This document shows positions 9,401-46,572 of a stretch of 64,000 nt of DNA, one piece after another (position 1 is the first letter of the stretch; each line of letters opens with the position of its first letter). The translations under genes were made by a program, and so were the position numbers. Under the pieces are notes generated by a model. The model saw nothing but the letters and a program-made list of their open reading frames with translations, was not told the origin of the DNA and ran no database searches. The DNA comes from Candidatus Poribacteria bacterium (lineage in GTDB: Bacteria; Poribacteria; WGA-4E; WGA-3G): contig OZ243935.1 of the NCBI GenBank assembly GCA_965214045.1, positions 2,794,904 through 2,858,903 of the forward strand, read 5' to 3'.

Positions 9401-9436
9401 GCGATGTCACGCTGGTTTTCCGCGTTTCAGTTTTCT

Positions 9437-31308: not shown

Positions 31309-31506
31309 TGTTGCTTATTCCCAAGCCCCAGCGGGGCAGCATGTCTGTAGCAACGCGTCCGACCGCACGTCTAAAGCCCCAGCGGGGCGACATGTCTGTA
31401 GCAGCGCGACCAGTCCTATTTTCCCAAGCCCCAGCGGGGCGGCATGTCTGTAGCAGCGCGATCAGTCCTATTTCCCAAGCCCCAGCGGGGCGACATGTCT
31501 GTAGCT
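31309..31506. repeat. Tandem array (3.5-4 units, period ~51-52 bp) of AAGCCCCAGCGGGGCGACATGTCTGTAGCAGCGCG with ~16-bp TCCTATTTCCC-type linkers
   Basis: Copies at 31323, 31374, 31426 and 31477. Linkers are nearly identical to each other, so this is not CRISPR-like. Same family as 5994-6086. Confidence 0.8.
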
Positions 31507-32892: not shown

Positions 32893-32936
32893 TGATTAAT
32901 TCTCCTCAATGCAAGTGCGGTGTCGGTTTAACGGAA

Positions 32937-33227
32937 TCATTCTAACGTTTCAACCTCGTAAGGTGCCATCTGTGTCGCATCCGTTTTGCGGACGCGAAAT
33001 TGGATGTCCTTAAAGAGTCCATCATTATTTTTTCTCAAGCTTTCAAGGGATTCCCCTAAGGAACGTGCTGATATGTAGAAGATATACTCAAGGTCATTGC
33101 TGATTTTTTTTACGTGAAGAATAGGGGCATACCCCTTAAATGTCAAAACAACATCCGGTTCAGAGATAATTTCCAATTCTATCCATCCGGTCCCGACTTT
33201 TAAAGGCGGTGGTAATTCTTGAGGCAT
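32937..33227 (-). CDS. Hypothetical small protein (96 aa) within the defense cluster
   Basis: ORF only. 8-bp gap to the upstream gene. No recognisable motif. Confidence 0.3.
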   Translation of the reverse strand: MPQELPPPLKVGTGWIELEIISEPDVVLTFKGYAPILHVKKISNDLEYIFYISARSLGESLESLRKNNDGLFKDIQFRVRKTDATQMAPYEVETLE

Positions 33228-33235
33228 AGTTTCTC

Positions 33236-33751
33236 CTATAGATCATGCAGTGCTTCGGCAAGCTGATTTTGAATCGCTTGTTCCTCTGTAACAGGTTCGG
33301 ATTGCAGTAGGTCGTCAAGGGCATCAGAAAGGTTCCATATCGGGCTTTCGGAGCCTTCGTTTAGCATTTTCACGATGTGGGGGACACCTGCAGCTGCCAG
33401 ACCGTTGGCGATGTCCATCATGCGACGCGGCTTAAGGACAACCTCTAAGTTTCCTTCAACGGCTATCGCAATTAACATGATCGCTTGCGCCTGCCAGCCA
33501 TCCGTGTCAAAAATATTACCGCTAATGATGCTAACAGTGTCCTTTTTCTTTTTTGTTAAATGCATCGGTTTAAGATTCTGACGCGCTGCCAGCGAGAGTC
33601 CGGCAAACCAGAGATCCACCTTTCGTGGAAACGGAGTCTTAGCGGCTTTCGCACCTGCTCCCGTTTGGCAGTAATGATCGTAGTCATCCCGCTGTATAGT
33701 AGGTGATATGATTTGCATATTGCGAAAAGGATTATCGTAGTGTTGTGCCAT
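33236..33751 (-). CDS. Hypothetical protein (171 aa) within the defense cluster
   Basis: ORF tightly packed between the DndD-like and the 96-aa gene (9-bp and 8-bp gaps). No recognisable motif. Confidence 0.35.
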   Translation of the reverse strand: MAQHYDNPFRNMQIISPTIQRDDYDHYCQTGAGAKAAKTPFPRKVDLWFAGLSLAARQNLKPMHLTKKKKDTVSIISGNIFDTDGWQAQAIMLIAIAVEGNLEVVLKPRRMMDIANGLAAAGVPHIVKMLNEGSESPIWNLSDALDDLLQSEPVTEEQAIQNQLAEALHDL

Positions 33752-33760
33752 AGTGATCTC

Positions 33761-35884
33761 CTAAGATTCCGGCTGGATTTCTACCTCAACATCCGTGCGT
33801 CGCTTGCAGCGTTCACATTCTCCGAGGTCCTGGCACTCACACCGGAGTGCCTGCGGTTCATTTATATGTGGATCGTTTACTAATATAGTGGGGTAGTGTG
33901 CCGAATTTGTAATGGTGATGATACGTCCTGCTTCATCTGCTATAATATCTTCACAGTCTTTAATTTCGGAACGCGTCAGAAAGAGGATCAGTTGTGCACT
34001 TTCTTGAACAGCTGTTTTGAGAACGGAACGTTTGACAAACCCGTCCATCATTCCGAGGGGTGTATCAATCACGTTTGGTGCTATAACTTCACTGACTTTG
34101 GTGAGGGCGAGAATAAACGCTACCGTCAATGCTCTCCGAGAGGCACCATTTAAATCTTCCCTGGGGTTCAAAGCGCGTTTATTGGGTCCATAGACGAGAA
34201 TATTAAAATCTGGACTGATTTCTGCTTTCTGGATGATTGCTCCCTGTTCAGCGTCCGCGCCGATCATTTCCAGAAAAAATGTGTTCATCAACCGACTCAC
34301 TTCTTGCAATTCTTCGTTTGTGATTCGTTCGTATGAATTTTCAAGGATTTGCTCTATATCGCGCGTGGCATCTAATCTGGCTAATATTCCTTCCCCTCTT
34401 CTCTGTTTACTTATAAGGTTATTATGTGTTGCTGTTAAGGATCTCTGACTTTTTTTCAGGCGGTCAAGTTCTATTTCGTGCTCTATATGGGTACCGTTCA
34501 AAGAATCGCGTTGAGCAATATAGTCTTGCTTAGTGGCGCGAAGTTCTTGAATGTCGGTATCCCCTATACTCTCAAGTTGGACTTCCAATACGCTGAGTTC
34601 TTTTTCCAATTCTACGCGTCGAGCTTCAAGTTCATCGCGAAGGATTGCGTTTCTCTTGTATTCAGCGATCCAGTGTTGCTCATGGCTAATCTCTATCGGT
34701 TTCAGCTCCAATGAACCGAAATAAAGACCGGTCAGACGTGTTTGAAGTTCATCTGTTTCCCGACTCTCGCTAATGAGTCGTTCGATATGCGCTCTGCGCC
34801 GCTGTCCGTCTTCCGAGTGTTGATCCAGGGACTCTCCACAAATGCAGGCAGGACCTGTGAGTCGTTCTTCAAGCACAGGAATCGTTGTTTTCGGCAGTTT
34901 ACCCTGGTTGCTGAGTTCATCCAATTTCTCAAAACTTTTTTCCAAAACCGGGGCGAGCAGATCTCGGAATAGCGGCGGCTTTCTGAAGAATTGTGACTGC
35001 TCAGAAACCAGTTTTTCCTCTTGATTTTTGATTCTTTTTAGTTCTGCTTCTGATTTTTGCAGTCCGCGATTAAGTTCTTCTTGGTCCCCCTTAAGCAACG
35101 CTGCTTCAATGTCTTTATCAATTTCCGTTAGACTGTGATTGACTGCATCAAATTGAAGTTTCGCATCATCTCTTTCCTTTTCAAGACGTTCAACCTTTTC
35201 ATCTATCTCCCCCAATTCTGTAGCGATTTCGACAAGTTCTGTATCGGTTCCGATATTCTTTGAATCTCTATTGAGTCCAGCCATTGTCTTTTTCAAGTGA
35301 TCGAGAGCAGTCTCAATCACATCAAGGCCTAACAATGATTGAATGGCTTCCTGAACCTGTTTACGCTTATCTGTTCGTGAGTCTGCTTCAATGAAACTCA
35401 GTGCCCTGTCTCCGTCGGTGAAAAATACTTCACGCAAATTAGAGGGGACCAGGAGTCTGGCGATCTGTGCATCTGGTGTAGGTATTGGGGTGCTCCCAGT
35501 TTCTGTCAGTTCAAACAATTCTATTTTCGGGTTTTGTCTGAGCCCCTCGGTTGTCTCCTCTACGGAACGAATGAGGCAGTAGCGACTTGTCTTATTTCTA
35601 TTTGCCTCTGATGCAGGTGTTTCAAAATCGACTTGCACAGATATCGGAATTGCTTGACCATCAGGGACATCCCAATCAATTGGAAATAGTCGGTGTCCTC
35701 TACCTTTATCCGGTAGGGCATCATCGCCGTAGAGAGCCCATTGTAGCGCGTTTAAAATGGTCGTTTTTCCGCTCTCATTGGAGGCGCGAATGACCGTGAG
35801 TTTTCTGTCGTCACTGGTCGAAAAATCTAATCTTAGGTCTCGTAGCAGTCGAAAGTTTTGAAATCTTGCCCTGATGAGTTTCAT
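33761..35884 (-). CDS. DndD-like SMC/ABC-type ATPase
   Basis: 707 aa. N-terminus MKLIRARFQNFRLLRDLRLDF...LTVIRASNESGKTTILNALQWALYGD matches the DndD/AAA_23 Walker A region. Long coiled-coil middle. C-terminal signature/D-loop region. Confidence 0.65.
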   Translation of the reverse strand: MKLIRARFQNFRLLRDLRLDFSTSDDRKLTVIRASNESGKTTILNALQWALYGDDALPDKGRGHRLFPIDWDVPDGQAIPISVQVDFETPASEANRNKTSRYCLIRSVEETTEGLRQNPKIELFELTETGSTPIPTPDAQIARLLVPSNLREVFFTDGDRALSFIEADSRTDKRKQVQEAIQSLLGLDVIETALDHLKKTMAGLNRDSKNIGTDTELVEIATELGEIDEKVERLEKERDDAKLQFDAVNHSLTEIDKDIEAALLKGDQEELNRGLQKSEAELKRIKNQEEKLVSEQSQFFRKPPLFRDLLAPVLEKSFEKLDELSNQGKLPKTTIPVLEERLTGPACICGESLDQHSEDGQRRRAHIERLISESRETDELQTRLTGLYFGSLELKPIEISHEQHWIAEYKRNAILRDELEARRVELEKELSVLEVQLESIGDTDIQELRATKQDYIAQRDSLNGTHIEHEIELDRLKKSQRSLTATHNNLISKQRRGEGILARLDATRDIEQILENSYERITNEELQEVSRLMNTFFLEMIGADAEQGAIIQKAEISPDFNILVYGPNKRALNPREDLNGASRRALTVAFILALTKVSEVIAPNVIDTPLGMMDGFVKRSVLKTAVQESAQLILFLTRSEIKDCEDIIADEAGRIITITNSAHYPTILVNDPHINEPQALRCECQDLGECERCKRRTDVEVEIQPES

Positions 35885-36126
35885 TGCGTAACCTCTGTCG
35901 TTGGGTTATCTGTATCACGTTTCCTCGCGAGAAAATCGCCAGCCTTATGGCATGCTTGGTTTACCTGTTTTTGAATGGTTGTTCTTTGTGCTTGATGTTC
36001 TCTCTCGGCACTGAGGATTTCAACGATTGCCTCAAGCACTTTTTTCCTGTAGCCGTCGCATCTTTCCTCAATAGATTCACATTCATTGAGAATCATCTTT
36101 ACCATTTTTTCCTTGTTATATGACAT
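35881..36126 (-). CDS. Hypothetical small protein (81 aa), translationally coupled (ATGA overlap) to the DndD-like ATPase
   Basis: ORF only. 4-bp overlap with the downstream gene start. Confidence 0.3.
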   Translation of the reverse strand: MSYNKEKMVKMILNECESIEERCDGYRKKVLEAIVEILSAEREHQAQRTTIQKQVNQACHKAGDFLARKRDTDNPTTEVTQ

Positions 36127-36137
36127 AATCTCCTCCG

Positions 36138-38282
36138 TTATACGTAAAGGGTTCTAACCAGTTGGTCGATGTGGCTTAAGGGTCCATCAGGTCTACCAAA
36201 GTTCTTCGCAAGGTAAGCGAACGCTTGAATCCGTTTGAGTTCGGACGCTATTAAGGCATGTGCGCGAGTGTCCAGATTATCCAAATCCGGGGGTAGCGCG
36301 ATAAAATCGTGGATTTCACTGTGCGTTTTGCTGGTCTTACTACACGTGCGGAGCAGCCTCCCGCGCCGCTGCGTCCACTGCCGTTCCACTGTGGTGCTCG
36401 CCAAAATAAAAGCCTTCTCAATTTCTGGGATATTCACGCCTTCATCAAGTACACGCTTTGCGGTTAAGACACGCAGCGTTCCTTCTTGAAAGGACTGAAT
36501 AATCTGTGCGGTTTTTTTACGGTCACCTGTTTCTTTGTAGGTCAGTTGATGAAACAGCACCCCGTGTCTGTTCAGTAAGGCGTTAACAGCTTTCAGCTGC
36601 TGCGGTGCCTTGTCAGAGGCGTAAATCAAGGTATGCTGGAGTTTGTTGAAATCTTCGCGTTGCGTTAAGACATCTTCTAACACGGCGACCTTATTTTCTG
36701 CGTTCTCCAAAAGTGCCCGACGGTCTCGGAGCAATTTCATAAGGTACACATTGTCCGCATCCTCGTTCTCCTGCATCCACGCATTTTTCCTGATCTCTTC
36801 CGTGAGAGCATACCACTCCTCCATTTCGTCCTCTGTGAGTTCTACCGGATGCACGTAGTATTCGTATTCAACGAGGCATCTGCCGATGGCTTCCTCAAGT
36901 GTGAACTCAAAAACAATAGGTCCGAAAAACGCAAATAACTGATCCGTGCCTTCTTCATCGTATTGACGGATCGGAGTTGCGGATAAACCTAATCGATAAT
37001 CGAAAAATTCAGGCGGATCGGTGATGAATCCTTCACTTCCGAGATTGTGGACTTCATCAGCAATGAGTAAGGTTTTACAATCGAATTTCTTCAGTTCCTC
37101 TTTAAAATTAGGACTGCAAAGGGTCTTATGAGAAACAATGGCGATCTCAATGTCGCTACTACCGAATCGAAGCCTCCGCTCAAGTTTCTTAAGTTCAGCT
37201 GCACGTCCCCTTGCTCCATTCACCTCAGTCAGATTAACTGGCTTCAGCCCAAAGGATGAAATTTCATCACACCACTGTTGGATGAGGGGTATATAGGGCG
37301 CGGCAACGACGATAAGCAGTGGTTTCTCCGTCTCATAGAGTCTATGTGCACAAATCATGGCAGCGATGGTTTTTCCTGAACCTGTTGCCATTTCTAATAT
37401 CCCTTGATGACCGCCTTCACACCACGCTTTCACAGCTCTCCCTTGATGTTCAAAGTCACCCTCCTCAAATTCCAGATATGATGGTATTGTAAATGAAGGA
37501 CGGGGCACCTTAAAGTCGTAAGTTGTAGAAGCTTCCTGTATAGCAGCAGCTTCCGCTTTGTAGAGTGTGTGAAAGTCGTCCTCTGTCGGTGGGATATCGG
37601 AGTTATAGGTTTTCAACAGATTTTCCTTAATTGCTTGTGGTATCGGAATCACAGTGCACGTCTCATCGTAATTCGTCCAAAATTGCTTGAACTGATCGCA
37701 CAATTTTTCTGTAATATAGTATTGGTTACCATCTTCCCACGATTTGGAGATGGACATCTGCTCAATATTTTTCTGAATACCGGCGTAGGTCATATTGCTG
37801 GAGCCGTGTGCTGCGATAACATCGTCACCCTCGTGAAAGAGCCAGACCTTGGGGTGGAAAAGCGCATCTTTCATCAAAGCGATTTTGATTTCCACGCGTC
37901 TGTGACGCAGCATCCATGAGAGGCATTTCAGCGTATGCTGCGCAATAGCGTTTTCGGTAACAACAAAATCTTCTAAAGCTGTGTTGACGATATCCTCTAC
38001 GGAGGCTACGCCTTCTGCTATTGCCGCTTTGTCTTCAGGGCGGAGCAGCGGACTGATAATCAGACGCAAACTTTCGTCTGCACAGTTTATGAACGTTGCT
38101 AATCCTGGCGCAAGGGACACCAGAATTTCACTCGAAAAGAAACCTATCATGCAATCAACATGCGTAGCAGACTGAAAGCACGGAATTAGGACATCTTCTG
38201 TCGCGGGATCCTTTGGCAACATGTAAAGGGGTCGAATATCGGGTATCGCCCGAAGTGTCATCCCATGATTTTTTCTTTTCAT
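36138..38282 (-). CDS. Phospholipase-D-family nuclease domain fused to an SF2 (DEAD/DEAH) helicase
   Basis: 714 aa. N-terminal HxK...GSxN (HPKVWLFHEG...GSSNMTYAG). Helicase motifs I MATGSGKTIAAM, II IADEVHN, VI QRRGRLLR. Confidence 0.65.
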   Translation of the reverse strand: MKRKNHGMTLRAIPDIRPLYMLPKDPATEDVLIPCFQSATHVDCMIGFFSSEILVSLAPGLATFINCADESLRLIISPLLRPEDKAAIAEGVASVEDIVNTALEDFVVTENAIAQHTLKCLSWMLRHRRVEIKIALMKDALFHPKVWLFHEGDDVIAAHGSSNMTYAGIQKNIEQMSISKSWEDGNQYYITEKLCDQFKQFWTNYDETCTVIPIPQAIKENLLKTYNSDIPPTEDDFHTLYKAEAAAIQEASTTYDFKVPRPSFTIPSYLEFEEGDFEHQGRAVKAWCEGGHQGILEMATGSGKTIAAMICAHRLYETEKPLLIVVAAPYIPLIQQWCDEISSFGLKPVNLTEVNGARGRAAELKKLERRLRFGSSDIEIAIVSHKTLCSPNFKEELKKFDCKTLLIADEVHNLGSEGFITDPPEFFDYRLGLSATPIRQYDEEGTDQLFAFFGPIVFEFTLEEAIGRCLVEYEYYVHPVELTEDEMEEWYALTEEIRKNAWMQENEDADNVYLMKLLRDRRALLENAENKVAVLEDVLTQREDFNKLQHTLIYASDKAPQQLKAVNALLNRHGVLFHQLTYKETGDRKKTAQIIQSFQEGTLRVLTAKRVLDEGVNIPEIEKAFILASTTVERQWTQRRGRLLRTCSKTSKTHSEIHDFIALPPDLDNLDTRAHALIASELKRIQAFAYLAKNFGRPDGPLSHIDQLVRTLYV

Positions 38283-38318: not shown

Positions 38319-39572
38319 TCAGTGTTGGTTTGCCCCTTTGCGAGCGTTACATTGTCTGCAAAGTGTTTGGGCGTTTTCAAGAGTTGTTTTCCCACCATCC
38401 GCGTGAGGAGTTATGTGATCAGCTTCCATTTTATCAAATTCGATTTTTTGGTTGCATCCTTGACAAGTCTCATTGTCTCTACGCCAAATCACAATTCGTT
38501 CGTCACGAGAGAAAGCACGTTGTGAGTCTTTTCGCACTAAGTGCTGGATGTCTCGGAGGAATCGTCTTTTATATACTTCATGTCGCTTTTCGAGGTTAGG
38601 TTTTGTCCCACCTGAGCGGATGAAAGCTTCAATGTAATCATACATATCTCTATCCCAAAGACTTTTGCCTGCAGCAAGTAATTCACTGGGATCTGATATA
38701 ACTGACCGCCTCTCTTCTTCAAAGGCAACGTAAAAATCAGCGAAGTCAATCTCGTGATCTCGGATAACATAGGACTTATTCATTTCCGAAATTAGTAAAT
38801 ATAAGTCTACAAAGCCCCACTTAACGTCCATGTCGGGAGGACGATTTTCCAAAACTTTTTCCATATATCCTAAGTGCCGTCGAACTTTTTTGGCAACAGA
38901 TCCATTGTGGTCAAAATTCTGATTATTCCTGTACATTTTGGTGAGACTCGGTGCCTTGACATCCGTTGGTCCTTGTGCTATCTCCAGACGCGTTACTACA
39001 GCGGCCAGGTCATGCCACCCAAATCTCTTTTCTGAAAGGAAGGTTAATGGAAAAACACGATGGTTATCTCCTAAGTTTGCTATGAAATCTCGCATTTTAC
39101 CCGGCATAGCGTTTCGTTTTTCTACAGGATTCAAAGACAGTCCTTCTTGCAATCTTAGAAAAAGATCTCGTATATCTAAATCTGATGCATCCTCAACCTC
39201 AACTAAATTAAGCTCAAATATTGCAAATTGATCCTGAATATCGCTTGGCAATTCTGAGAATTTCTTACCTGATAAGTCCCCAAAATTAGGTATGTCTCTT
39301 GATGCTTCACCCAGGACATACTGATCATCATGGAAATCCCAAATAGCATTCAGCCTTTGCTGTCCATCAACAACCTCATGCTCATACTCAGAATCAGACG
39401 ATACTCGGAGGTAAAATTTGGGCATATCATATTGTCGAAGTATTGAGTCAATAAGCAATTGCTTTTTTGCCTCATTCCAAACTGGAGTCCGCTGATACTG
39501 AGGTCTTGGATTTATCTTTGGCTTCCTTCTGGCAATTGTTTCAATTGTCCAATGTCTTGGTCGAGTTTTCAT
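38319..39572 (-). CDS. DUF262 (ParB-like, DGQQR motif) plus C-terminal HNH nuclease; GmrSD / SspE-like
   Basis: 417 aa. N-terminal VVDGQQRLNAI. C-terminal CQGCNQKIEFDKMEADHITPHADGGKTTLENAQTLCRQCNARKG. Confidence 0.65.
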   Translation of the reverse strand: MKTRPRHWTIETIARRKPKINPRPQYQRTPVWNEAKKQLLIDSILRQYDMPKFYLRVSSDSEYEHEVVDGQQRLNAIWDFHDDQYVLGEASRDIPNFGDLSGKKFSELPSDIQDQFAIFELNLVEVEDASDLDIRDLFLRLQEGLSLNPVEKRNAMPGKMRDFIANLGDNHRVFPLTFLSEKRFGWHDLAAVVTRLEIAQGPTDVKAPSLTKMYRNNQNFDHNGSVAKKVRRHLGYMEKVLENRPPDMDVKWGFVDLYLLISEMNKSYVIRDHEIDFADFYVAFEEERRSVISDPSELLAAGKSLWDRDMYDYIEAFIRSGGTKPNLEKRHEVYKRRFLRDIQHLVRKDSQRAFSRDERIVIWRRDNETCQGCNQKIEFDKMEADHITPHADGGKTTLENAQTLCRQCNARKGANQH

Positions 39573-39621
39573 GGGTCAGCCCTACTCCGATTGCATAAAT
39601 AGATTCTGTGCAGTAGAAATA

Positions 39622-40473
39622 TCACTTATGGCACGCCAAACACGGTTCCTCATCATCCTCATCGTCAAGCACATCCGTGAAGATTTGCACCAAACGTTGA
39701 TTCGGTCTCTCGGATCGCTTGGCGGCAAGGGCTGCTGTAGCCTCCGCCTTAATCTGCGCGACACGCTCCGGTCGCGACAACTCCGCTAAACTCTCGCCTT
39801 GACACCACGTGAATTGTTGATCTGTCCTGGCATTTTCATTAGGCTCTTCTTCATATTTCCTCGCGAGCGCAAAGAGATCAGGATGCTTTTCTAATAAGCC
39901 GACCCACTCGGCTTTACGCTGGAAGAAACAGAAATAACACCCGGAACGCGTCCGCCACTCGTAATACGTCGGAAGCCCGAGCCCGCTCTCCTCCAGAATC
40001 CGATAGACATCCTCTTTCGTGATGCCGTCCTCTTTGAACGGATACTTCGGTTCAATGTTCCGTAAATCCGTGGTTCTCAGCGGTTTGTAACCCGTCCTGT
40101 CTTCGTCTGCACGGATGGCGATGTAGTGATACGCTTTGTCTGCGCCGATGTATTCCTCGAAAGGTATGATTTTCAGGTTAGCTGTGCACCAGCGGACTTG
40201 GGAGGACGGCAAGAGCCCCCCGTATAAGGCTAACCAGTGGTCAAAACTGCGGTCTTCATTCGGATCCGGATTCATATTGAGACGGACAATCGGTTTGCCG
40301 AGATGCGCTTCTAACCGATCCAGGTATTCATACGTCTCTGGAAGTTCCTTACCTGTATCCGAGAAAAAGTATTCCATCTCTATTTCCGGTTTTTCTCTAC
40401 GCATGTAAACCGCGAGGGCGGAACTGTCTTTGCCGCCAGAGAGTCCGAGGACGTGTCGGATATTTTCTGCCAT
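39622..40473 (-). CDS. PAPS-reductase-family ATP pyrophosphatase (SspD/DndC-like)
   Basis: 283 aa. PP-loop LSGGKDSSALAVYM. C-terminal CxxC (CLACHK). Confidence 0.65.
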   Translation of the reverse strand: MAENIRHVLGLSGGKDSSALAVYMRREKPEIEMEYFFSDTGKELPETYEYLDRLEAHLGKPIVRLNMNPDPNEDRSFDHWLALYGGLLPSSQVRWCTANLKIIPFEEYIGADKAYHYIAIRADEDRTGYKPLRTTDLRNIEPKYPFKEDGITKEDVYRILEESGLGLPTYYEWRTRSGCYFCFFQRKAEWVGLLEKHPDLFALARKYEEEPNENARTDQQFTWCQGESLAELSRPERVAQIKAEATAALAAKRSERPNQRLVQIFTDVLDDEDDEEPCLACHK

Positions 40474-40546
40474 GTCTCCTCCTACGAGTCAGTTGTGCAG
40501 AGGCGTATAAAACACGAGGCACAACCGAACAGGGTATGCTACGGTG

Positions 40547-43500
40547 TTAAATTGCCCTTTCGTTCTCAAATGCCTGCATCAGTTTTTGTGAGATACGCGC
40601 CAAAACAGCGAGTCGGAATCCGTGATTTTTCTCTGCGTCCAGTTCATCAAAAGCCGTCTCAATCGCGCGTTCCAATCCAACTGCCTGTGCCTCGGCAGTT
40701 GCGGGTAAAGTGACGACCTGTTCTTGTTCGGGTTGGTTTCGGGTTGTAATACCGATCCGAATCGCTTCACCTGTCGAGGTTTCAGTATGACCGGGTTGAT
40801 CGTAAGACACGGCTTCAAGGTGTCGGAACTTCCGTGCAAGATGTGAAAGATTATTTTGGAATTGGGCTTTATCTGTGTCTAACCATTTATCCGGCGGTTT
40901 TTTCGCGAGATAACTCGCGAGAGCGACAAGCCAGCTTTTGAAATCGTGTCCACCGCTATGGATGTTGATTAAGAATCCCTTGAGGTCGGTTTCGATCGCG
41001 ACCGGTAACAGGACTTCAGCTCTACAGACGAGGGCATCGCGGAGTGTCTCTGATGTGAGATCAAACGCTGTCGCTAACATCTCCTCAAGAGAATCCAATA
41101 GACGGTCGTATGCCTGATTTAACTCGGATAACGCCCCTTGCAGCGTCCCGAAAAATTGTGAAACGCCGTGGGGATCCGTTGCTGTCTCTGCCTTAAAAGC
41201 CGGGAACCCGAGTGCTGCTGGCAGCTGTTTAAAGAGGAGTTCATCAGGTTCGCGTGCATTTCCGAGGGTGGCACGGAGATTTTGAGCAGCTTCACTGAGT
41301 TCTTGCGTGGTCCGCGTGTACTGCGGGAGTTCGCTGATCGTCTGGACCAACGGCACGACAACCGTCAAGAGATCCGGTTTTTCAGAGGCTTCAGCGGTAT
41401 CGAGCGCGCCTAAAAATTGGGGGAACAGGTCGGCACGGATATCCGTCATCCGAAAACGTTTCAGTTCAAAGCGTTCTGGTCTTTTAATTAACCTTTCAAA
41501 GACGGGGATCGTCCAGTTCGGGATGAAGGATCCGTTTTCATAGAGGGCGATCTCTGTTTTGTAGTGAAGTATCACCGCACATAACAGGATAGGCAGCGGT
41601 CCCTCGCGGGCACCAATAGGCGGTTTCATCAGGTCTGTGTAGAGGTTAGGCAACGGCTGCCGTCTGTCTTCACACGTTTCAAGGAACTGCTCAATCGCTT
41701 CCCATATCGGTCGGACATCGTTTGTCGCGTCAGGTGAGGGCGGATGAAACCGCCACATATCCGATCCTGGAATTTGACGATGGATGCCTGTTTCTAAGAG
41801 AAGCGACCGGTAGATACTCATTTCAGCGGGGTAACCCTCTATACCGAGATTATCTTCGGCTTCCTTTTCAAGCATCGCTTGGATGAGTTTCCGCCTCGCG
41901 GTTGTAACAGCACCGGAGACTTTCCGTCTGTTAATGAGTTCGTGCCGAATCACAGGCGTTTTGGGGTAGACAGCATCGCAGATTTCTGAGAGATATCCAT
42001 TTCTCTCACGCAGCGACTTGATGGGGATCTCTTTTCCCTTATGATACCATTGACACGGATTGTCAGTACCGCCTTTACCTTTAAAGAGTGACGTTACTTC
42101 TTCAGATACACTGCGTTCCGCTTCTGAGGAACGGATTGCGAGTTCACGTCTGGCGGTTTTATCGCCTTCAAGTTCTTCCGTATTCTGCGAGACCCAGTGC
42201 AAACACGCAAGTTCTCTGACGGCACCGTATAGCGTATCTGTGGATGTTGGCATCGCAAGGAGTACCTCCTCGCGGCTTTCGAGGTTTTCACGTTTCGCTT
42301 TTTCGAGGATTTGCTTACCTTCGTTTTCATCCCCCGGCAATGCATAGAGCACAAGTCCATCTGCCGAATCAAGAGGTGCTGCGAGGGTATCCTCAAAGTT
42401 GTCAAGGTCTGTATAACGCACTGTGAAATAGCGGAGGGTGCCTTTCTCAAAAAGATGTCTGCGTGCGATGAGAGGGCGCGGCGGTATGAAATCTGACAAA
42501 TAGGTCATCAATCTTTCGTTTCGATTGAGCTGCCCTTCTGCATGCTGGAGCCGCTCTTCGATATTAATATCGCTGCCTTCCCAGAGCGCATAGGTCTTAT
42601 TATGCCGCCGATGGATCACAATTGAACGGGCTTGGATGTCTTCAAGTGTCCTGCTAAATTCCTCCTTAAATCCTGCCGTCTGATCGTCTAAAGCATAACG
42701 GAGGACCCCTTCTGAAGCGTTTAGGTTTCTACTGACTTCTCCGACAATCCCAAGCAGACCGATGGTTTTGATGAGTTTCACGAGCAGCGGCGATGGATCC
42801 GCCAATCGGTTGATAGCCATCTCAACTTCGAGCCACCGGTCCCCTTCGCGCGAGGTATAGAGTCGGTTTCCCAGACTGAGCTGGAGATAATCGTAGAGGT
42901 CGGGGATTGAAAACATCGGCAGCGTGTTCCCGTCATAAGACCGGTTTTCCAGAAAATCGCGGAGTCCATGCGGTTCAACTGCATTCAGGAAAGCAAAGAG
43001 AGAGCGTTCATTTTGTGCGAATTTTCGGAAAACGGGTCCGATGAGGAGTGCTACAGTTGGGTGAAGCGGTAGACAATTTCGGAGCAACTCGCGAAAGGCA
43101 GCCGCATCGCCGAATGGATTGAGATTGAGATCAGAGGCAGGCAGCAGCTGCAGGTCTCCGATACCTTCCGTGTCCTTGTTTTGGATAGCGGAGCCAATGA
43201 GTTGAAGGATTTGATCTGCCGGTTCCACGAAGGCGAGATCTTCAAACCGTCCTTGAACCTTTGCCCATTCCTCGCGTTGTGAGGCTGCTGCTCTGTTTGC
43301 ATAGTGTTCAAAAGCTTGATGCAAGATAGTCATGAAAAAGAGGGGTGTCTCTGCACTCCGTGTCGCAAATTCAGCGAGGGTTTGTAGCACAAACACATCG
43401 CCTTGCGCAGGATGTTGTGCGGCGTGTTCAAGGAACTTGCCAAGTTCGTCAACCACGAGTAACAAACCGCCACCGCCTTTTTTCTTGATTGTCAGTGTTG

Positions 43501-44056
43501 CAGATTCAAAAAGTGCTGTGACTTCAGTTGCTGACAAGGGATTGCCGTTTTTCTCTGTTTTCAAGAGTGCTTGGATGTCTTTTCGCAGGGAGTGTCTTGC
43601 GGTGATATGAAAGGTTTGAAGTCCGTGTTCTAATCCTTGCAAGAGGGCGTGTGTAATGGATGCGCGTTCGCCAGAGATAAGCACTGGACAAAAACCAACT
43701 GCCGTTTTTTCTCTGTTCCCGTTTAGGCTCAAAAAACGTTCGTATAATGGCGGATCGCTGTGTTTGAGTAATTTCAGAGCGTGTTTTGTTGTGGCGGTGT
43801 CAGTGTTTCCGAAGAGTTTTGCGGCGAAGAGTGCGAACGCAGATTTCCCCGCTCCGTAAGGACCCGTGAGGGACCACGCTTTTGATGTCGCCTCGTTCTC
43901 TCGTGCTGTGATAAGCCGAGCAAGGGTCTCCCGTGCTTTGACAGTCACAACGTAGCCATCTAAGGCGTTTTCGGTATAGAAATCGCGTGCCAGATGAACA
44001 GAACGTTGAAAGCGTTTGGTGATGTGAAAAATATCTGACAAGGGTGTGTTAGCCAT
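40547..44056 (-). CDS. Large P-loop ATPase (SspC/BrxC-like, DUF499-type)
   Basis: 1169 aa. Walker A LTGPYGAGKSAFALF (~aa 66). Walker B LLLVVDELGKF (~aa 210). 8-bp overlap with the upstream DUF4007 gene. Confidence 0.55.
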   Translation of the reverse strand: MANTPLSDIFHITKRFQRSVHLARDFYTENALDGYVVTVKARETLARLITARENEATSKAWSLTGPYGAGKSAFALFAAKLFGNTDTATTKHALKLLKHSDPPLYERFLSLNGNREKTAVGFCPVLISGERASITHALLQGLEHGLQTFHITARHSLRKDIQALLKTEKNGNPLSATEVTALFESATLTIKKKGGGGLLLVVDELGKFLEHAAQHPAQGDVFVLQTLAEFATRSAETPLFFMTILHQAFEHYANRAAASQREEWAKVQGRFEDLAFVEPADQILQLIGSAIQNKDTEGIGDLQLLPASDLNLNPFGDAAAFRELLRNCLPLHPTVALLIGPVFRKFAQNERSLFAFLNAVEPHGLRDFLENRSYDGNTLPMFSIPDLYDYLQLSLGNRLYTSREGDRWLEVEMAINRLADPSPLLVKLIKTIGLLGIVGEVSRNLNASEGVLRYALDDQTAGFKEEFSRTLEDIQARSIVIHRRHNKTYALWEGSDINIEERLQHAEGQLNRNERLMTYLSDFIPPRPLIARRHLFEKGTLRYFTVRYTDLDNFEDTLAAPLDSADGLVLYALPGDENEGKQILEKAKRENLESREEVLLAMPTSTDTLYGAVRELACLHWVSQNTEELEGDKTARRELAIRSSEAERSVSEEVTSLFKGKGGTDNPCQWYHKGKEIPIKSLRERNGYLSEICDAVYPKTPVIRHELINRRKVSGAVTTARRKLIQAMLEKEAEDNLGIEGYPAEMSIYRSLLLETGIHRQIPGSDMWRFHPPSPDATNDVRPIWEAIEQFLETCEDRRQPLPNLYTDLMKPPIGAREGPLPILLCAVILHYKTEIALYENGSFIPNWTIPVFERLIKRPERFELKRFRMTDIRADLFPQFLGALDTAEASEKPDLLTVVVPLVQTISELPQYTRTTQELSEAAQNLRATLGNAREPDELLFKQLPAALGFPAFKAETATDPHGVSQFFGTLQGALSELNQAYDRLLDSLEEMLATAFDLTSETLRDALVCRAEVLLPVAIETDLKGFLINIHSGGHDFKSWLVALASYLAKKPPDKWLDTDKAQFQNNLSHLARKFRHLEAVSYDQPGHTETSTGEAIRIGITTRNQPEQEQVVTLPATAEAQAVGLERAIETAFDELDAEKNHGFRLAVLARISQKLMQAFENERAI

Positions 44057-45032
44057 AACACCTCTCTAAAAGTTCCATTTCATTAAGATCTCTCTGTCGA
44101 TACAGTTGTTTCAGACCCGTCGTTTCATCGTATTCAAACGCGCCATCTGTGAGTTCTGCGAGGTCCTCAAGATAGACCGTCAGGGTATCCTCATCTAATC
44201 TGAAAACGCGTCCAGGACTCGATGGGGCATACATCAGTTCTGAGAACGCCAGTGAGTTTCTCTGGGAGAATTCGTTCGCCGAAAACGTGTCTTGTGCCCA
44301 AGGGTATGGATGTTTCCAAAATGTGTTCAATGCCCAGGCGACGACTGCCGTGGAAAGTGTTTCTTTTTCGCCACGCTGGAATTCATAACCATCTCCACCC
44401 ATTAATTCCGAGATCAGGTTCAACTCGACGAGCGGGCAGTCGAAGGTATCTTCAACGACAGCAGTGGTATCGCGTGATTGACAGTAAGTTCGGAGAAAAC
44501 AATTGACATCGCGCCGGAGTGTATTGTCGGAGACCAACCGCATCCCGGGTCTCTGTTGCTGTGCCCACCTGTAGACCTTTTGTGTAAATATATCCGGCAT
44601 AAACGGATTATCTGTTAAAATATTGAATGCCCAATACCAGGCTGTGGCTTGGGTGCCGCCTGTTGCGATCTGGTAGTGGATGATCCATAGCGTCGCCGGG
44701 TCTTCAAGGTATGGGTCGAATCCTTCTTCAGCAAAAATGTCTTTACCGAGTTGAGTCGGTGCAAATTGCCCGCGTCGGGACTGGGCGGTATCCTCTTTGA
44801 TGAGTCGAGTTGCCCGACACCAATGCCGAATGGAGTCCACCATGTTTTTTCCGACCCCTAAAGTAACGGAAGCATCCGCAGCTGAAAAAATGGTCGGATT
44901 TTCTATCACGGCATCAACGCCTTTCTTCAACCATGTATAGCGAAAAGGGAAGGTCTGGTGTCCTGAAAAAGAGGGGGAGATCGGTGGGATGTTACGCATA
45001 ACCTGCCCCCCTGGAGTATCTGGGCGGGTCAT
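44049..45032 (-). CDS. DUF4007-family protein (SspB-like)
   Basis: 327 aa. N-terminus SFSGHQTFPFRYTWLKKG matches the DUF4007 signature as I recall it. First gene of the operon. Confidence 0.5.
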   Translation of the reverse strand: MTRPDTPGGQVMRNIPPISPSFSGHQTFPFRYTWLKKGVDAVIENPTIFSAADASVTLGVGKNMVDSIRHWCRATRLIKEDTAQSRRGQFAPTQLGKDIFAEEGFDPYLEDPATLWIIHYQIATGGTQATAWYWAFNILTDNPFMPDIFTQKVYRWAQQQRPGMRLVSDNTLRRDVNCFLRTYCQSRDTTAVVEDTFDCPLVELNLISELMGGDGYEFQRGEKETLSTAVVAWALNTFWKHPYPWAQDTFSANEFSQRNSLAFSELMYAPSSPGRVFRLDEDTLTVYLEDLAELTDGAFEYDETTGLKQLYRQRDLNEMELLERCYG

Positions 45033-45159
45033 GCGAAAAGCAGGACGCGTCGAGCGTAACGCGGAACAATGAAAATAGCCCTTCGGTTAAGCGAGCGCGC
45101 GGGATAGCGGCAGCTGCAATAAAGGATTTATATTGTGTTTTACTTAATTTTTGTAAAGT

Positions 45160-45169
45160 GGGGGGGGGG
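45160..45169. repeat. G10 homopolymeric tract ~130 bp upstream of the defense operon start
   Basis: GTGGGGGGGGGGT read directly at 45160-45169 in the 460-bp intergenic region. Confidence 0.85.
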
Positions 45170-45491
45170 TAGATTGGCTTGTTAAATCAGGTGCCCAGAC
45201 GGCTTCCGGGGGTACGAATAACCTCTTGAGGCAAGGATTCTTATCAAGCATACGTGCTATTCTGATTATAGTGTTCATATCTCGATTTTTCATTCGCTTT
45301 ATTGATTAAGTACAGAGTGATGGGAATATTCAGATTTTTGTTCCTGATGTCAAGTTTACTTAAAATTTTAGCACGGATTCGTATTAAATGTCAAATTTTT
45401 TTGCTTTACTGCATCTATCATTAGTTTTTAGAATTTTATATGGATCGGATGTTCTAAAAGTTTAAGGGATATCGCAGGAAAAATTGGAGGG

Positions 45492-46385
45492 TTAGTAAAT
45501 TGAAAGTTCTCGGTAGTTTCCTTGAAACACTTCCCTAACATGCCAACCAATGAACTGTACCTCTGGATAATGGGATTGTCTTTGCGGGAGAAGAAGCGTT
45601 TTGCCGTGATACCGCTGCAGCCATTCCTTAAAGCCTTTTGTTCCGTGCGCGTCATCTGATACAAGGATTTGTCGTTGCTTGGATAGCGTAAAAGCTCCGC
45701 GATCAAATAATTCGTGATGTAACACGCATAAAGCAAGGCCATTCACTGCTTCACTGGGACCGCCATGCGATTTCCATTTGATATGTGCAGCTTCTAACGC
45801 GATAGGCGTATTTCCTAATTTCACATCGAAGCCGCATACTGCACATTTACGCTCGTAAGCTCTTAGGATGTTTTCTCGGAAATTGAGAGAGCGTCTTTTC
45901 GTCTCAAAAACTTGGAATGGTGGTTGAATGTTGACAGCTTGTAAAATTTCGCTGTGGCGTGTGAGAGGGAAGTGATCATCCAGCAAATCGTAGATTATTT
46001 CAAAGGCGAGTCTTGAATCGTTTTGAAGTTGATTTGCGATTGATTTAGGGAAACCACCGACTCCATGATGTCGTAAATCGGTTACGTAGGCATCTCCACT
46101 GGAAGTTTGTCGAATTCGATCGGTATTCCTTATCTCCCAGATTTCGTCGTTTTGCAGCCGCCAAAATGGGTGTTGAGGATGATAACTTTTGCGCCACGGT
46201 CCAAATTCTCTCAGCAAATTGCGAAGATCGTCCTCTGTAGCCTCAAATGAAATGTGTTTATCTTCACCGCTCAGCAATTTTCCGATTGCATACAATATTA
46301 ACAGTGGCTTGTGGGCTGCCCTTTGGTCGCCTCTTTTCCATACATTCAGATTCTGGAATTTATGAATGATTTCTTCTCGTGTCAT
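45492..46385 (-). CDS. HNH endonuclease with an N-terminal DNA-binding/sensor domain (type IV restriction-like)
   Basis: 297 aa. C-terminal CAVCGF...LEAAHIKWKSHGGPSEAVNGLALCVLHHELFDRGAF HNH motif. N-terminal HKPLLILYAIGKLL domain of unknown specificity. Confidence 0.6.
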   Translation of the reverse strand: MTREEIIHKFQNLNVWKRGDQRAAHKPLLILYAIGKLLSGEDKHISFEATEDDLRNLLREFGPWRKSYHPQHPFWRLQNDEIWEIRNTDRIRQTSSGDAYVTDLRHHGVGGFPKSIANQLQNDSRLAFEIIYDLLDDHFPLTRHSEILQAVNIQPPFQVFETKRRSLNFRENILRAYERKCAVCGFDVKLGNTPIALEAAHIKWKSHGGPSEAVNGLALCVLHHELFDRGAFTLSKQRQILVSDDAHGTKGFKEWLQRYHGKTLLLPQRQSHYPEVQFIGWHVREVFQGNYRELSIY

Positions 46386-46572
46386 TTGCAGTGGACCCCG
46401 TCGAGCAATTTACCAAGTTGCCTCCGCAATTCTGCCATAGAAACTTCTTCTCCGCTTGTTATCATCAATGGACCTGACGCAAACATATCTCAAAGTATAC
46501 CACAGACTTGGCGACACGTCAAAAGTTTTCGTTAGTTGTTCAGGGGTATTTATTGTTACGAGCCCCCTCTTA

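What the first reader, a model, noticed from the sequence alone, without database searches (positions are those of the whole stretch)
45492..46385. Stand-alone sensor-domain/HNH endonuclease at the island edge, possibly a modification-dependent (type IV) enzyme
The C-terminal HNH motif is canonical. The N-terminal ~170 aa (HKPLLILYAIGKLL...) is a separate DNA-binding-type domain.

Type IV HNH enzymes with sulfur-binding (SBD) or SRA sensor domains are frequently linked to PT systems. A PT-sensing enzyme next to a PT-writing system would imply different sequence specificities or anti-self control. I cannot identify the sensor domain by eye.
Basis: inference. Interest (0 to 1): 0.5.

Follow-up and report, generated by a model that had tools for sequence, protein, structure and literature searches.

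The report
Phosphorothioate-reading HNH nuclease beside Ssp writer
This gene encodes a known kind of restriction enzyme that recognises sulfur-modified (phosphorothioate) DNA and cuts it; the enzyme is ordinary, but it sits right next to a system that writes that same kind of mark, and that pairing persists across related sponge-symbiont genomes.

Summary
Window 45492-46385 (minus strand) is an intact 297-aa ORF. Its N-terminal domain (about residues 1-155) is a sulfur-binding domain (SBD). Sequence and predicted fold match only the PT-DNA-bound SBDs of ScoMcrA, SprMcrA and Hga. The core sulfur pocket (H25, K26, P73) is intact, and so are all HNH catalytic and zinc residues. The whole protein matches NCBIfam NF045808, "phosphorothioated DNA-binding restriction endonuclease" (323 bits, cutoff 180). 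dN/dS is about 0.1 in both halves.

The neighbours are a full-length SspB-SspC-SspD phosphorothioate (PT) writer, then a DUF262-HNH gene and PbeA/PbeC/DndB-like genes. In the window's clade (mostly Poribacteria), 19 of 24 informative loci have Ssp genes or fragments beside the nuclease. However, the nuclease often stays intact where the writer is eroded or absent. Ssp cassettes on virus-like contigs lack it. In Citrobacter it is a resident gene at an integration hotspot.

Best reading (about 0.55): a classical type IV enzyme aimed at foreign PT patterns, tolerant of the host's own Ssp marks. Rival (about 0.2): a PT-sensing partner of Ssp. The enzyme is a new member of a known family. The conserved Ssp linkage, including a tight SspD-HNH gene pair in sister lineages, appears undescribed.

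The parts
45492..46385 (-). SBD-HNH gene, 297 aa; predicted phosphorothioate-dependent type IV restriction endonuclease
   Evidence: ORF. NF045808 full length, 322.9 bits against a cutoff of 180. dN/dS 0.06-0.12 against relatives where dS is not saturated.
45921..46385 (-). Sulfur-binding domain (SBD, a winged-helix fold), residues about 1-155. Sulfur pocket: H25-K26-P27 and H72-P73-F74-W75-R76-L77
   Evidence: phmmer matches to 5zmm/5zmo/5zmn and 7cc9. Foldseek top 16 hits are all SBDs, with target-normalised TM 0.70-0.79 against isolated SBD chains. AF2 block-mean pLDDT 71-96. Pocket residues invariant or nearly so in 163 homologues.
45636..45890 (-). HNH nuclease domain, residues about 166-250. 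Zinc ligands C181, C184, C220, H223 or H224; catalytic H201 and N215
   Evidence: Pfam HNH_2. Aligns to the TagI HNH domain, 6ghs. Residue conservation. The AF2 model of this half is unreliable, pLDDT below 50.
46494..46522 (-). Promoter-like site upstream of the SBD-HNH gene (TTGACG-17-TATACT with an extended -10 TG)
   Evidence: Consensus scan only; not evidence of function.
45033..45491 (-). Conserved spacer between the HNH stop and the sspB start. Contains a near-consensus promoter-like site (45365-45394, TTGACA-18-TAAAAT) and a poly-C tract (45160-45169 on the minus strand). Homology with the closest relatives breaks at about 45141
   Evidence: Promoter scan. Eight-locus alignment. Only G/C run of 8 nt or more in the window. 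Mosaic breakpoint. Not coding by the codon-position test. No conserved RNA structure and no Rfam hit.
44049..45032 (-). SspB (DUF4007), PT-writer component
   Evidence: Pfam DUF4007 E 7e-86. PADLOC SspB E 4.5e-96, full length.
40547..44056 (-). SspC (Orc/Cdc6-type ATPase related to BrxC/PglY), PT-writer component
   Evidence: PADLOC SspC 1081 bits, full length.
39622..40473 (-). SspD (PAPS-reductase-like), PT-writer component
   Evidence: PADLOC SspD E 2.8e-113, full length. Pfam PAPS_reduct.
38319..39572 (-). DUF262 (GmrSD_N) + HNH protein, 417 aa. A variable insert that resembles SspE in architecture
   Evidence: Pfam. Found only in the window and in L004.
31807..38282 (-). PbeA (36138-38282), PbeC/DndD-like (33761-35884), a 171-aa ORF (33236-33751) and a DndB/DGQHR-like gene (31807-32892): a candidate restriction module of the island
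   Evidence: PADLOC, Pfam and NCBIfam.

Best explanation
The gene encodes a two-domain SBD-HNH enzyme of the EcoWI/SprMcrA type (NCBIfam NF045808).

Shown here: the N-terminal domain has the sulfur-binding fold and keeps the core pocket residues that hold the Rp sulfur of phosphorothioate (PT) DNA. These are H25, K26 and P73, equivalent to ScoMcrA H116, R117 and P165. The C-terminal half keeps every HNH catalytic and zinc residue. Both halves are under strong purifying selection.

Inferred from the biochemistry of characterised relatives: the SBD docks on a PT linkage in a preferred sequence context, and the HNH domain, probably acting as a dimer, then cuts nearby DNA. The enzyme therefore restricts incoming DNA that carries a foreign PT pattern.

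Also inferred: the host's own Ssp marks do not trigger it. Characterised Ssp systems write PT on one strand at CpsCA. The characterised SBD of SprMcrA does not bind CpsCA, and that of ScoMcrA recognises only GpsGCC. The position that helps set specificity (H72, equivalent to ScoMcrA Y164) varies between clades, and the base-contact loop (S-S-G-D-A here, against S-R-G-R-R in ScoMcrA) differs in the sequences compared.

The gene lies at the edge of a defence hotspot where Ssp cassettes are repeatedly exchanged and eroded. Its position beside the writer reflects long co-residence in that hotspot rather than dependence on the writer.
For: Identity:
- NF045808 full-length hit.
- phmmer matches to the ScoMcrA and SprMcrA SBDs.
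- Foldseek top 16 hits are exclusively SBDs solved with PT-DNA, followed by a sharp drop to generic winged-helix proteins.
- PF26340 (DNA-SBD_ScoMcrA) plus HNH_2 on all close homologues.
- Pocket and HNH residues conserved in 163 homologues, including the enterobacterial members.
- The E. coli member is annotated the same way in RefSeq.
- dN/dS 0.06-0.12 in both halves.

Independence from the writer:
- The nuclease stays intact with no Ssp genes within 10 kb in L006, L008, L009, L167 and L192. It also stays intact where only SspD or Ssp fragments remain (L161, L163, L164, L166, L193, L194, L195).
- Against L001 and L081, the HNH gene plus spacer is about 93% identical at the nucleotide level, like the chromosomal flank (92-95%). 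sspBCD is only 68-77% identical, so the nuclease tolerates replacement of the writer allele.
- None of the 8 complete SspBCD cassettes on IMG/VR contigs carries an SBD-HNH.
- In Citrobacter, the Ssp-adjacent nuclease is 93-94% identical to orthologues with no Ssp nearby. Synteny ends about 20 nt after its stop codon. The slot beyond holds Ssp in two orientations, or Mrr/OLD/island genes.
- Other candidate effectors are already present in the islands: DUF262-HNH and PbeA/PbeC here, SspE in L072.

Literature:
- EcoWI and its homologues cut PT-DNA and restrict dnd+ plasmids (PMC7461809).
- SprMcrA's SBD does not bind CpsCA, and ScoMcrA's recognises only GpsGCC (PMC7470945).
- The promiscuous Hga restricts DNA with the one-strand CpsCA mark only 10-fold, against 1000-fold for PT on both strands (PMC10602919).
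Against: - The linkage to Ssp genes in the window's clade is strong: 19 of 24 informative loci.
- In sister lineages, SspD ends 13-19 nt before the HNH start, which suggests co-transcription. That SspD is under strong purifying selection (omega about 0.04) even without SspB/C. A purely coincidental neighbour does not explain this.
- The same HNH-SspB-SspC-SspD order recurs in Citrobacter L072.
- A second clade sits inside Dnd loci.
- The sequence specificity of this SBD is unknown.
- H72 replaces the tyrosine 'lid', and no enzyme with histidine at that position has been characterised, to my knowledge.
- The PT motif written by this Poribacteria Ssp system has not been measured.
Confidence: 0.55

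Rival explanations
1. PT-sensing partner of the Ssp system. The SBD reads the host's own Ssp marks, and this licenses, positions or restrains the HNH nuclease so that unmodified invader DNA is attacked. That would make it a restriction arm analogous to SspE, and to the reader-HNH proteins proposed for Dnd loci.
For: - Ssp genes or fragments lie beside the nuclease in 19 of 24 informative clade-A loci.
- The HNH-SspBCD order is kept while all the proteins diverge to about 58% identity (L010).
- The spacer between them is conserved.
- There is a tight SspD-HNH junction in sister lineages.
- Associations recur outside Poribacteria, in Citrobacter and Vecturithrix.
- L195 has two SBD-HNH paralogues flanking SspD.
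- Krishnan et al. 2024 propose this role for wHTH(SBD)+SRA+HNH proteins in Dnd loci (PMC10853773).
- SspE sets a precedent for a PT-sensing effector (PMC9646914).
Against: - The nuclease persists under purifying selection where the local writer is incomplete or absent.
- Generic SspBCD cassettes lack it.
- The islands carry other effector candidates.
- The Citrobacter adjacency is explained by insertion into a hotspot.
- All Poribacteria loci share one chromosomal site, so they count as roughly one evolutionary event.
- Every characterised family member is activated by PT, not inhibited by it (PMC7461809).
Confidence: 0.2
2. Functional partner of SspD specifically. A reader-nickase works with the PAPS-reductase-like SspD in making, maintaining or repairing PT, for example by supplying the nick that SspB normally provides. 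It would then not be a restriction enzyme.
For: - SspD-HNH pairs with a 13-19 nt gap occur in L161, L163, L164, L166, L193 and L195, with no SspB or SspC detectable in the sequence held for each locus.
- SspD omega is 0.03-0.05 at dS 0.6-1.2, including between loci that share the SspB/C-less arrangement.
- Truncated SprMcrA behaves as a nickase (PMC7461809).
Against: - In the window itself the gene is upstream of sspB, has its own promoter-like site, and is not next to sspD.
- Many family members are stand-alone.
- No biochemical precedent exists.
- SspB/C could be encoded elsewhere in those genomes.
- The unidentified three-gene set next to SspD may be its real partner.
Confidence: 0.1
3. Decayed or catalytically dead remnant. 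It would be tolerated next to the writer because it no longer cuts. This is one of the explanations Lutz et al. offered for nucleases found next to dnd clusters.
For: - Bsp48385I, a dnd-linked homologue, showed only low residual activity (PMC7461809).
- AF2 models the HNH half poorly.
Against: - All catalytic and zinc residues and all core pocket residues are conserved.
- dN/dS is 0.03-0.14 for the HNH half where dS is not saturated.
- The ORF is intact in every relative examined.
- The low pLDDT most likely reflects a shallow, narrow alignment.
Confidence: 0.04

Closest known systems
EcoWI and other two-domain SBD-HNH PT-dependent restriction enzymes (Lutz et al. 2020, PMC7461809; NCBIfam NF045808)
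   Same: Same two-domain architecture and length (about 280-300 aa). Full-length HMM match. Identical H-K-P and P-F-W-R-L pocket motifs and HNH residues.
   Different: - Only 37-39% identical to the enterobacterial members. I did not verify that those are EcoWI itself.
- Position 72 is H, against M in the enterobacterial clade.
- The base-contact loop differs.
- It sits beside an Ssp writer, whereas the enterobacterial clade is mostly stand-alone.
SprMcrA (Streptomyces pristinaespiralis), a two-domain SBD-HNH enzyme; SBD structures 7CC9, 7CCD, 7CCJ
   Same: Two-domain SBD-HNH. The SBD fold matches with target-normalised TM 0.70-0.79. phmmer E about 1e-4 over residues 4-139.
   Different: About 17-19% identity in the structural alignment. 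Different phylum. SprMcrA reads GpsGCC, GpsATC and GpsAAC but not CpsCA (PMC7470945). The specificity here is unknown.
ScoMcrA (SBD-SRA-HNH; structures 5ZMM, 5ZMN, 5ZMO)
   Same: Best sequence and fold match for the SBD. Equivalents of the H116, R117 and P165 pocket residues are present.
   Different: This protein has no head domain and no SRA domain, and is 297 aa against a 561-aa deposited chain. Y164 is replaced by H, A168 by R, and the S-R-G-R-R loop by S-S-G-D-A.
Hga (SBD fused to a PD-(D/E)XK nuclease; structure 8H0L)
   Same: SBD fold. It is the only characterised reader that binds CpsCA, the Ssp-type mark (PMC10602919).
   Different: The nuclease domain is different. phmmer did not detect it. 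Nothing shows that this SBD shares Hga's promiscuity.
SspE (the canonical Ssp effector)
   Same: Encoded next to sspBCD. Senses PT. Has an HNH-type nickase module.
   Different: SspE has a DUF262 NTPase plus DUF1524 architecture and is about 750-820 aa. This protein gave no PADLOC SspE hit. L072 carries both SspE and an SBD-HNH.
wHTH(SBD)+SAD(SRA)+HNH proteins encoded in Dnd loci (Krishnan et al. 2024, PMC10853773)
   Same: A PT-reader HNH nuclease embedded in a PT-writer neighbourhood, and proposed there as an alternative restriction arm.
   Different: Those have three domains and are linked to DndBCDE. This one has two domains and is linked to SspBCD. [quoted passage not shown]

Membership tests
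SBD-HNH PT-dependent type IV restriction endonucleases (NF045808; EcoWI/SprMcrA type) | Full-length match to the curated family model above its cutoff | tested here: met
   NF045808: 322.9 bits against a cutoff of 180; residues 5-288 match profile positions 2-284 of 284.
SBD-HNH PT-dependent type IV restriction endonucleases (NF045808; EcoWI/SprMcrA type) | N-terminal domain adopts the sulfur-binding-domain fold | tested here: met
   The AF2 N-domain is confident. Foldseek top 16 hits are all SBDs (5zmo, 7ccj, 8h0l and related chains), then scores drop to E > 0.2. phmmer to 5zmm gives E 5.6e-8.
SBD-HNH PT-dependent type IV restriction endonucleases (NF045808; EcoWI/SprMcrA type) | Core sulfur-pocket residues present (equivalents of ScoMcrA H116, R117 or K, and P165) | tested here: met
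   H25, K26 and P73 are present and invariant or nearly so in 163 homologues. Liu et al. 2018 report that these are the most conserved pocket residues and that R117K is tolerated (PMC6224610).
SBD-HNH PT-dependent type IV restriction endonucleases (NF045808; EcoWI/SprMcrA type) | Tyrosine 'lid' (ScoMcrA Y164) and A168 | tested here: not met
   These are H72 and R76 here. The literature describes both positions as poorly conserved and tied to sequence specificity (PMC6224610). R76 is shared with the enterobacterial members. I therefore do not treat this as disqualifying.
SBD-HNH PT-dependent type IV restriction endonucleases (NF045808; EcoWI/SprMcrA type) | C-terminal HNH nuclease with intact catalytic H and N residues and CCCH zinc ligands | tested here: met
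   Pfam HNH_2 E 6e-10. C181, C184, H201, N215, C220, H223 and H224 are conserved.
SBD-HNH PT-dependent type IV restriction endonucleases (NF045808; EcoWI/SprMcrA type) | Rp-PT-dependent DNA binding and cleavage | not testable with these tools
   Needs gel-shift and cleavage assays on PT-modified oligonucleotides or plasmids.
SBD-HNH PT-dependent type IV restriction endonucleases (NF045808; EcoWI/SprMcrA type) | Host does not write the PT pattern that the enzyme targets | tested here: inconclusive
   A full-length SspBCD writer lies directly downstream. Neither the motif it writes nor the SBD's specificity can be read from sequence.
ScoMcrA-type SBD-SRA-HNH enzymes | SRA (SAD) domain between the SBD and the HNH domain | tested here: not met
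   No SRA hit in Pfam. Only about 10-25 residues separate the two domains. ScoMcrA aligns only over its SBD and, weakly, its HNH domain.
SspE (Ssp restriction effector) | DUF262 NTPase N-domain plus DUF1524 nuclease | tested here: not met
   No SspE or DUF262 hit for this protein. A true SspE coexists with an SBD-HNH in L072.
Integral component of Ssp systems | Regularly encoded with sspBCD across lineages | tested here: inconclusive
   Ssp genes or fragments are present in 19 of 24 informative loci of the window's clade. However, 0 of 8 SspBCD cassettes on IMG/VR contigs carry the nuclease, and only 2 of the roughly 110 loci in the enterobacterial clade do. The nuclease also outlives the writer in several loci.

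The most novel reading that the evidence does not exclude
In Poribacteria and their relatives the SBD-HNH nuclease would be a genuine module partner of Ssp genes: a previously undescribed Ssp-linked PT reader-nuclease. It would read the marks laid down by the adjacent writer, or work directly with SspD, as hinted by the tight SspD-HNH gene pair that is maintained under strong purifying selection even without SspB/C. It would then not be an independent type IV enzyme.
Probability: 0.25. Interest if true: 0.65.

Novelty: new member of a known kind. Interest (0 to 1): 0.38.

Why it matters
PT-reading nucleases are expected to avoid PT-writing systems, because together they should be self-destructive. 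Here a reader under strong purifying selection has lived beside an Ssp writer through long divergence, writer-allele replacement and writer erosion. This gives a concrete natural test case for how PT readers and writers coexist, whether through different sequence context, through single-strand versus double-strand marks, or through regulation. It could also supply an SBD with a new specificity (histidine at the lid position) for PT-mapping tools such as EcoWI-seq. If the rival reading were right, it would add a new effector type to Ssp defence.

Tried and rejected
- **Local Pfam scan.** It found only HNH_2. The SBD model PF26340 did not come up in that scan, so I established the domain by PDB sequence search, fold search and the precomputed Pfam hits on homologues.
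- **Small ORF in the spacer** (45144-45293, MKNRDMNT...PPPLYKN). Rejected as coding. Variable columns show no codon-position bias (13/15/15), the start codon is lost in L002, and the frame after the poly-C tract is not kept.
- **Structured RNA in the spacer.** No Rfam hit. RNAalifold consensus energy is -3.2 kcal/mol with no covariation.
- **att-like repeats at the island or cassette boundaries.** None found.
- **Decay of the nuclease.** Rejected on residue conservation and dN/dS.
- **Metagenome scan.** It returned mostly gut enterobacterial relatives and added only one informative close locus (L081).
- **Viral contigs.** They carry only enterobacterial-type relatives at 36-45% identity, several of them at the very start of the stretch retrieved.
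- **AF2 model of the HNH half.** Unusable (pLDDT below 50), so I make no statement about domain arrangement or dimerisation.
- **Identity of the enterobacterial clade with EcoWI.** The paper text held gives no accession, so I could not confirm it by sequence.
Full report
**Observation.** Window 45492-46385 (minus strand) is an intact 297-aa ORF. Homologues align from residue 1. Pfam finds HNH_2 at residues 181-234. NCBIfam gives a full-length match to NF045808, "phosphorothioated DNA-binding restriction endonuclease": 322.9 bits against a cutoff of 180, E 1.5e-96. The database search returned 3331 homologues with E <= 1e-10, and the closest come from Candidatus Poribacteria MAGs (sponge symbionts). 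The feature is real and sits at the stated coordinates.

**The sensor domain.** It is a sulfur-binding domain (SBD).
- A sequence search of the PDB aligns residues 17-98 to the ScoMcrA SBD (5zmm, 5zmo, 5zmn; E 5.6e-8 to 1e-5). It aligns residues 4-139 to the SprMcrA SBD (7cc9 and related entries). The HNH half aligns to TagI.
- An AlphaFold2 model is confident for residues 1-155 (block-mean pLDDT 71-96) but not for the HNH half.
- Foldseek against the PDB returns SBDs as the top 16 hits: ScoMcrA, SprMcrA and Hga, each solved with PT-DNA. Target-normalised TM-scores are 0.70-0.79 against the isolated SBD chains. Scores then fall to generic MarR-type winged-helix proteins at E > 0.2.
- Precomputed Pfam annotation on close homologues reads PF26340 (DNA-SBD_ScoMcrA) plus PF13391.

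**Pocket and catalytic residues.** Liu et al. 2018 (PMC6224610) define the sulfur pocket as H116, R117, Y164, P165 and A168. They report that H116 and P165 are the most conserved, that R117 is a lysine in most homologues, and that Y164 and A168 vary with sequence specificity. Here the equivalents are H25, K26, H72, P73 and R76.
- In an alignment of 163 homologues, H-K-P and P-F-W-R-L are invariant or nearly so, including in the enterobacterial members. Position 72 is clade-specific (H, F, Y, L or M).
- The base-contact loop differs between the window's clade and the enterobacterial sequences printed.
- HNH residues C181, C184, H201, N215, C220, H223, H224 and D228 are conserved.
- dN/dS against relatives is 0.06-0.12 overall where dS is not saturated. 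It is 0.09-0.16 for the SBD half and 0.02-0.14 for the HNH half.

The protein is therefore a working member of the two-domain SBD-HNH family. Members of this family (EcoWI, SprMcrA and others) cut PT-modified DNA and restrict dnd+ plasmids (PMC7461809).

**Surroundings.** Downstream on the same strand lie, in order:
- SspB/DUF4007 (44049-45032)
- SspC (40547-44056)
- SspD (39622-40473)
- a DUF262+HNH protein (38319-39572)
- PbeA (36138-38282)
- a PbeC/DndD-like gene (33761-35884)
- a 171-aa ORF (33236-33751)
- a DndB/DGQHR-like gene (31807-32892)

SspB, SspC and SspD all give full-length PADLOC matches. No SspA (cysteine desulfurase) is encoded in the island. From my own knowledge, a housekeeping IscS may supply that function. 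Upstream lie an AAA_35 ATPase gene and then conserved chromosomal genes (FGE-sulfatase, a MutY-like gene). So the nuclease is indeed the last island gene. It has its own promoter-like site (46494-46522). The 459-bp spacer before sspB carries a near-consensus promoter-like site directly after the HNH stop codon. The nuclease and sspBCD are therefore probably separate transcription units here.

**Is the linkage to Ssp conserved?** I ran tblastn with the island proteins against 160 homologue loci from genomes and metagenomes, and added 12 look-up loci.
- The window's clade (56-95% identity; mostly Poribacteria) has Ssp genes or fragments beside the nuclease in 19 of 24 informative loci.
- Eight of these, counting the window, have the window's order HNH-SspB-SspC-SspD, down to 58% protein identity (L010).
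- A sister subclade (62-68% identity) instead has SspD ending 13-19 nt before the HNH start. SspC is present in L165. Neither SspB nor SspC is detectable in the sequence held for L161, L163, L164, L166, L193 or L195.
- L195 has two SBD-HNH paralogues flanking SspD. L161 and L194 contain Ssp and HNH fragments.
- Five loci have no Ssp genes at all (L006, L008, L009, L167, L192).
- All Poribacteria loci share the same chromosomal flanks, so they trace to roughly one acquisition at one hotspot. In other genomes the same hotspot holds pAgo, a type ISP restriction-modification enzyme, TIR and OLD-like genes.

**Pattern outside this clade.** A neighbour-joining tree shows three patterns:
- A marine gammaproteobacterial clade is mostly Dnd-linked. 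In L020 the order is DndH, then HNH, beside DndBCDE.
- The large enterobacterial clade is stand-alone, except for two Citrobacter genomes.
- L072 is a canonical SspBCD-SspE system with the nuclease directly upstream of sspB. Yet its nuclease is 93-94% identical to Citrobacter orthologues with no Ssp nearby. Synteny ends about 20 nt after the stop codon. The slot beyond holds Ssp in two orientations, or Mrr/OLD/island genes. There the nuclease is a resident gene at the edge of an integration hotspot.

Going in the reverse direction, 8 of 9 SspD-bearing IMG/VR contigs carry a complete SspBCD set, and none has an SBD-HNH.

**Mosaic structure.** Against L001 and L081, the HNH gene and most of the spacer are about 93% identical at the nucleotide level. 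That matches the chromosomal flank (92-95%). sspBCD is only 68-77% identical, and pbeA-pbeC 83%. The breakpoint lies near 45141. The writer cassette has therefore been replaced while the nuclease stayed in place.

**Mechanism.**
- Shown: the SBD fold, the conserved pocket, the intact HNH residues, purifying selection, adjacency to a full-length Ssp writer, and persistence of the nuclease where the writer is eroded or absent.
- Inferred: the enzyme binds Rp-PT in some sequence context and cuts nearby, as characterised relatives do. It spares the host because Ssp marks are single-strand CpsCA. SprMcrA's SBD does not bind CpsCA, and ScoMcrA's recognises only GpsGCC (PMC7470945). Even the promiscuous Hga restricts CpsCA-marked DNA only 10-fold, against 1000-fold for double-strand PT (PMC10602919).

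I put this at about 0.55. The main rival, at about 0.2, is that the nuclease is a PT-sensing partner of Ssp. The strong linkage and the tight SspD-HNH junction favour the rival. Against it stand the nuclease's survival without a complete local writer, its absence from generic Ssp cassettes, the presence of other effectors, and the PT-activated biochemistry of the family.

One observation fits neither reading. In loci that share an arrangement lacking SspB and SspC, SspD shows omega of about 0.04 at dS of about 0.9. A third, low-probability idea is a functional SspD-nuclease pair.

**Comparison with the literature and novelty.** The protein is a new member of a known, curated family. Full-text searches found no paper describing an SBD-HNH as a neighbour or partner of Ssp systems. 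Lutz et al. reported under 3.6% co-location with dnd clusters and expected avoidance. Krishnan et al. covered the three-domain form in Dnd loci only. The conserved Ssp linkage and the SspD-HNH pair therefore appear to be new contextual observations. They rest on one hotspot lineage plus a few independent cases.

**Side observations.** The spacer between the HNH gene and sspB is conserved across eight loci and always contains a poly-C tract of 8-14 nt. In the window this is the only G or C run of 8 nt or more in 64 kb. It is not coding, not a conserved RNA structure and not in Rfam. It may be a regulatory or phase-variable element for sspBCD.

Noticed in passing
window 45033-45491 (poly-C at 45160-45169, minus strand): The spacer between the HNH gene and sspB is conserved in 8 loci whose proteins are only 58-95% identical. 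It always contains a poly-C tract of 8-14 nt, which is the only G/C run of 8 nt or more in the window. It also has a near-consensus promoter-like site at 45365-45394. It could be a regulatory or phase-variable element for sspBCD. It does not look coding, shows no conserved RNA structure, and has no Rfam hit.
   Followed up: partly
window 39620-45141, compared with L001 and L081: The sspB-sspC-sspD cassette is only 68-77% identical at the nucleotide level to the closest relatives, while the HNH gene, spacer and chromosomal flank are 92-95% identical and pbeA-pbeC 83%. The writer allele has been replaced by recombination between conserved anchors.
   Followed up: partly
L161, L163, L164, L166, L193, L195 (SspD at about 9145-9987, HNH from about 10001; L164: 3841-4677 and 4697): In a sister subclade, SspD ends 13-19 nt before the SBD-HNH start. 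No SspB or SspC is detectable in the sequence held for each locus. SspD is still under very strong purifying selection (omega 0.03-0.05 at dS 0.6-1.2). This is unexplained.
   Followed up: partly
L195 7265-8176 and 10001-10894; L194 9603-10016 and 17549-17901; L161 10959-11132: L195 has two SBD-HNH paralogues (52% identical) flanking SspD. L194 and L161 carry fragments of SspB, SspD and the HNH gene. The hotspot has seen repeated insertion and deletion of Ssp and HNH units, possibly from an ancestral HNH-SspBCD-HNH arrangement.
   Followed up: partly
window 38319-39572 (minus strand): A 417-aa DUF262 (GmrSD_N) + HNH protein is inserted between sspD and pbeA. It is present only in the window and in L004 (86% identity). 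Its architecture resembles a short SspE, and its best PADLOC hit is NsnA.
   Followed up: no
window 31318-31505: A tandem repeat of 51 nt x 3.7 copies, with a palindromic core GCCCCAGCGGGGC, lies between the conserved 410-aa ORF and the DndB-like gene at the far end of the island.
   Followed up: no
window 46755-48353 (plus strand) and 52479-54125 (minus strand): There are two AAA_35-type ATPase genes. The first is an extra, divergent copy (about 67% nucleotide identity to the relatives' single copy). It is inserted between FGE-sulfatase and the HNH gene only in this genome.
   Followed up: no
L163 10966-12534; L164 5662-7674; L165 10968-12968; L166 10974-12422: A prokaryotic Argonaute (PADLOC pAgo in L163 and L165; Pfam Piwi in all four) lies immediately downstream of the SBD-HNH gene in several Poribacteria genomes. 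A 307-315 aa partner gene follows it in L163, L164 and L165.
   Followed up: no
L020 4443-17840 (Photobacterium), with similar tblastn hits in L016, L017, L021, L029, L033, L046, L092, L093, L100: In a marine gammaproteobacterial clade the SBD-HNH gene sits between DndH and a DndB-C-D-E cluster, so a PT reader-nuclease is embedded in a complete Dnd restriction-modification locus. Only L020 was confirmed with PADLOC.
   Followed up: partly
L161 5759-8671; L163 5760-8673; L193 5655-8639: A conserved set of three genes (365, 208-235 and 389-391 aa) lies head-to-head with SspD. It has no Pfam or PADLOC hit and its function is unknown.
   Followed up: no
E. coli complete genomes (query L055:10001-10834): At least 80% of the enterobacterial homologue is present in 1707 of 5426 complete E. 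coli genomes. RefSeq annotates it as 'phosphorothioated DNA-binding restriction endonuclease'.
   Followed up: no
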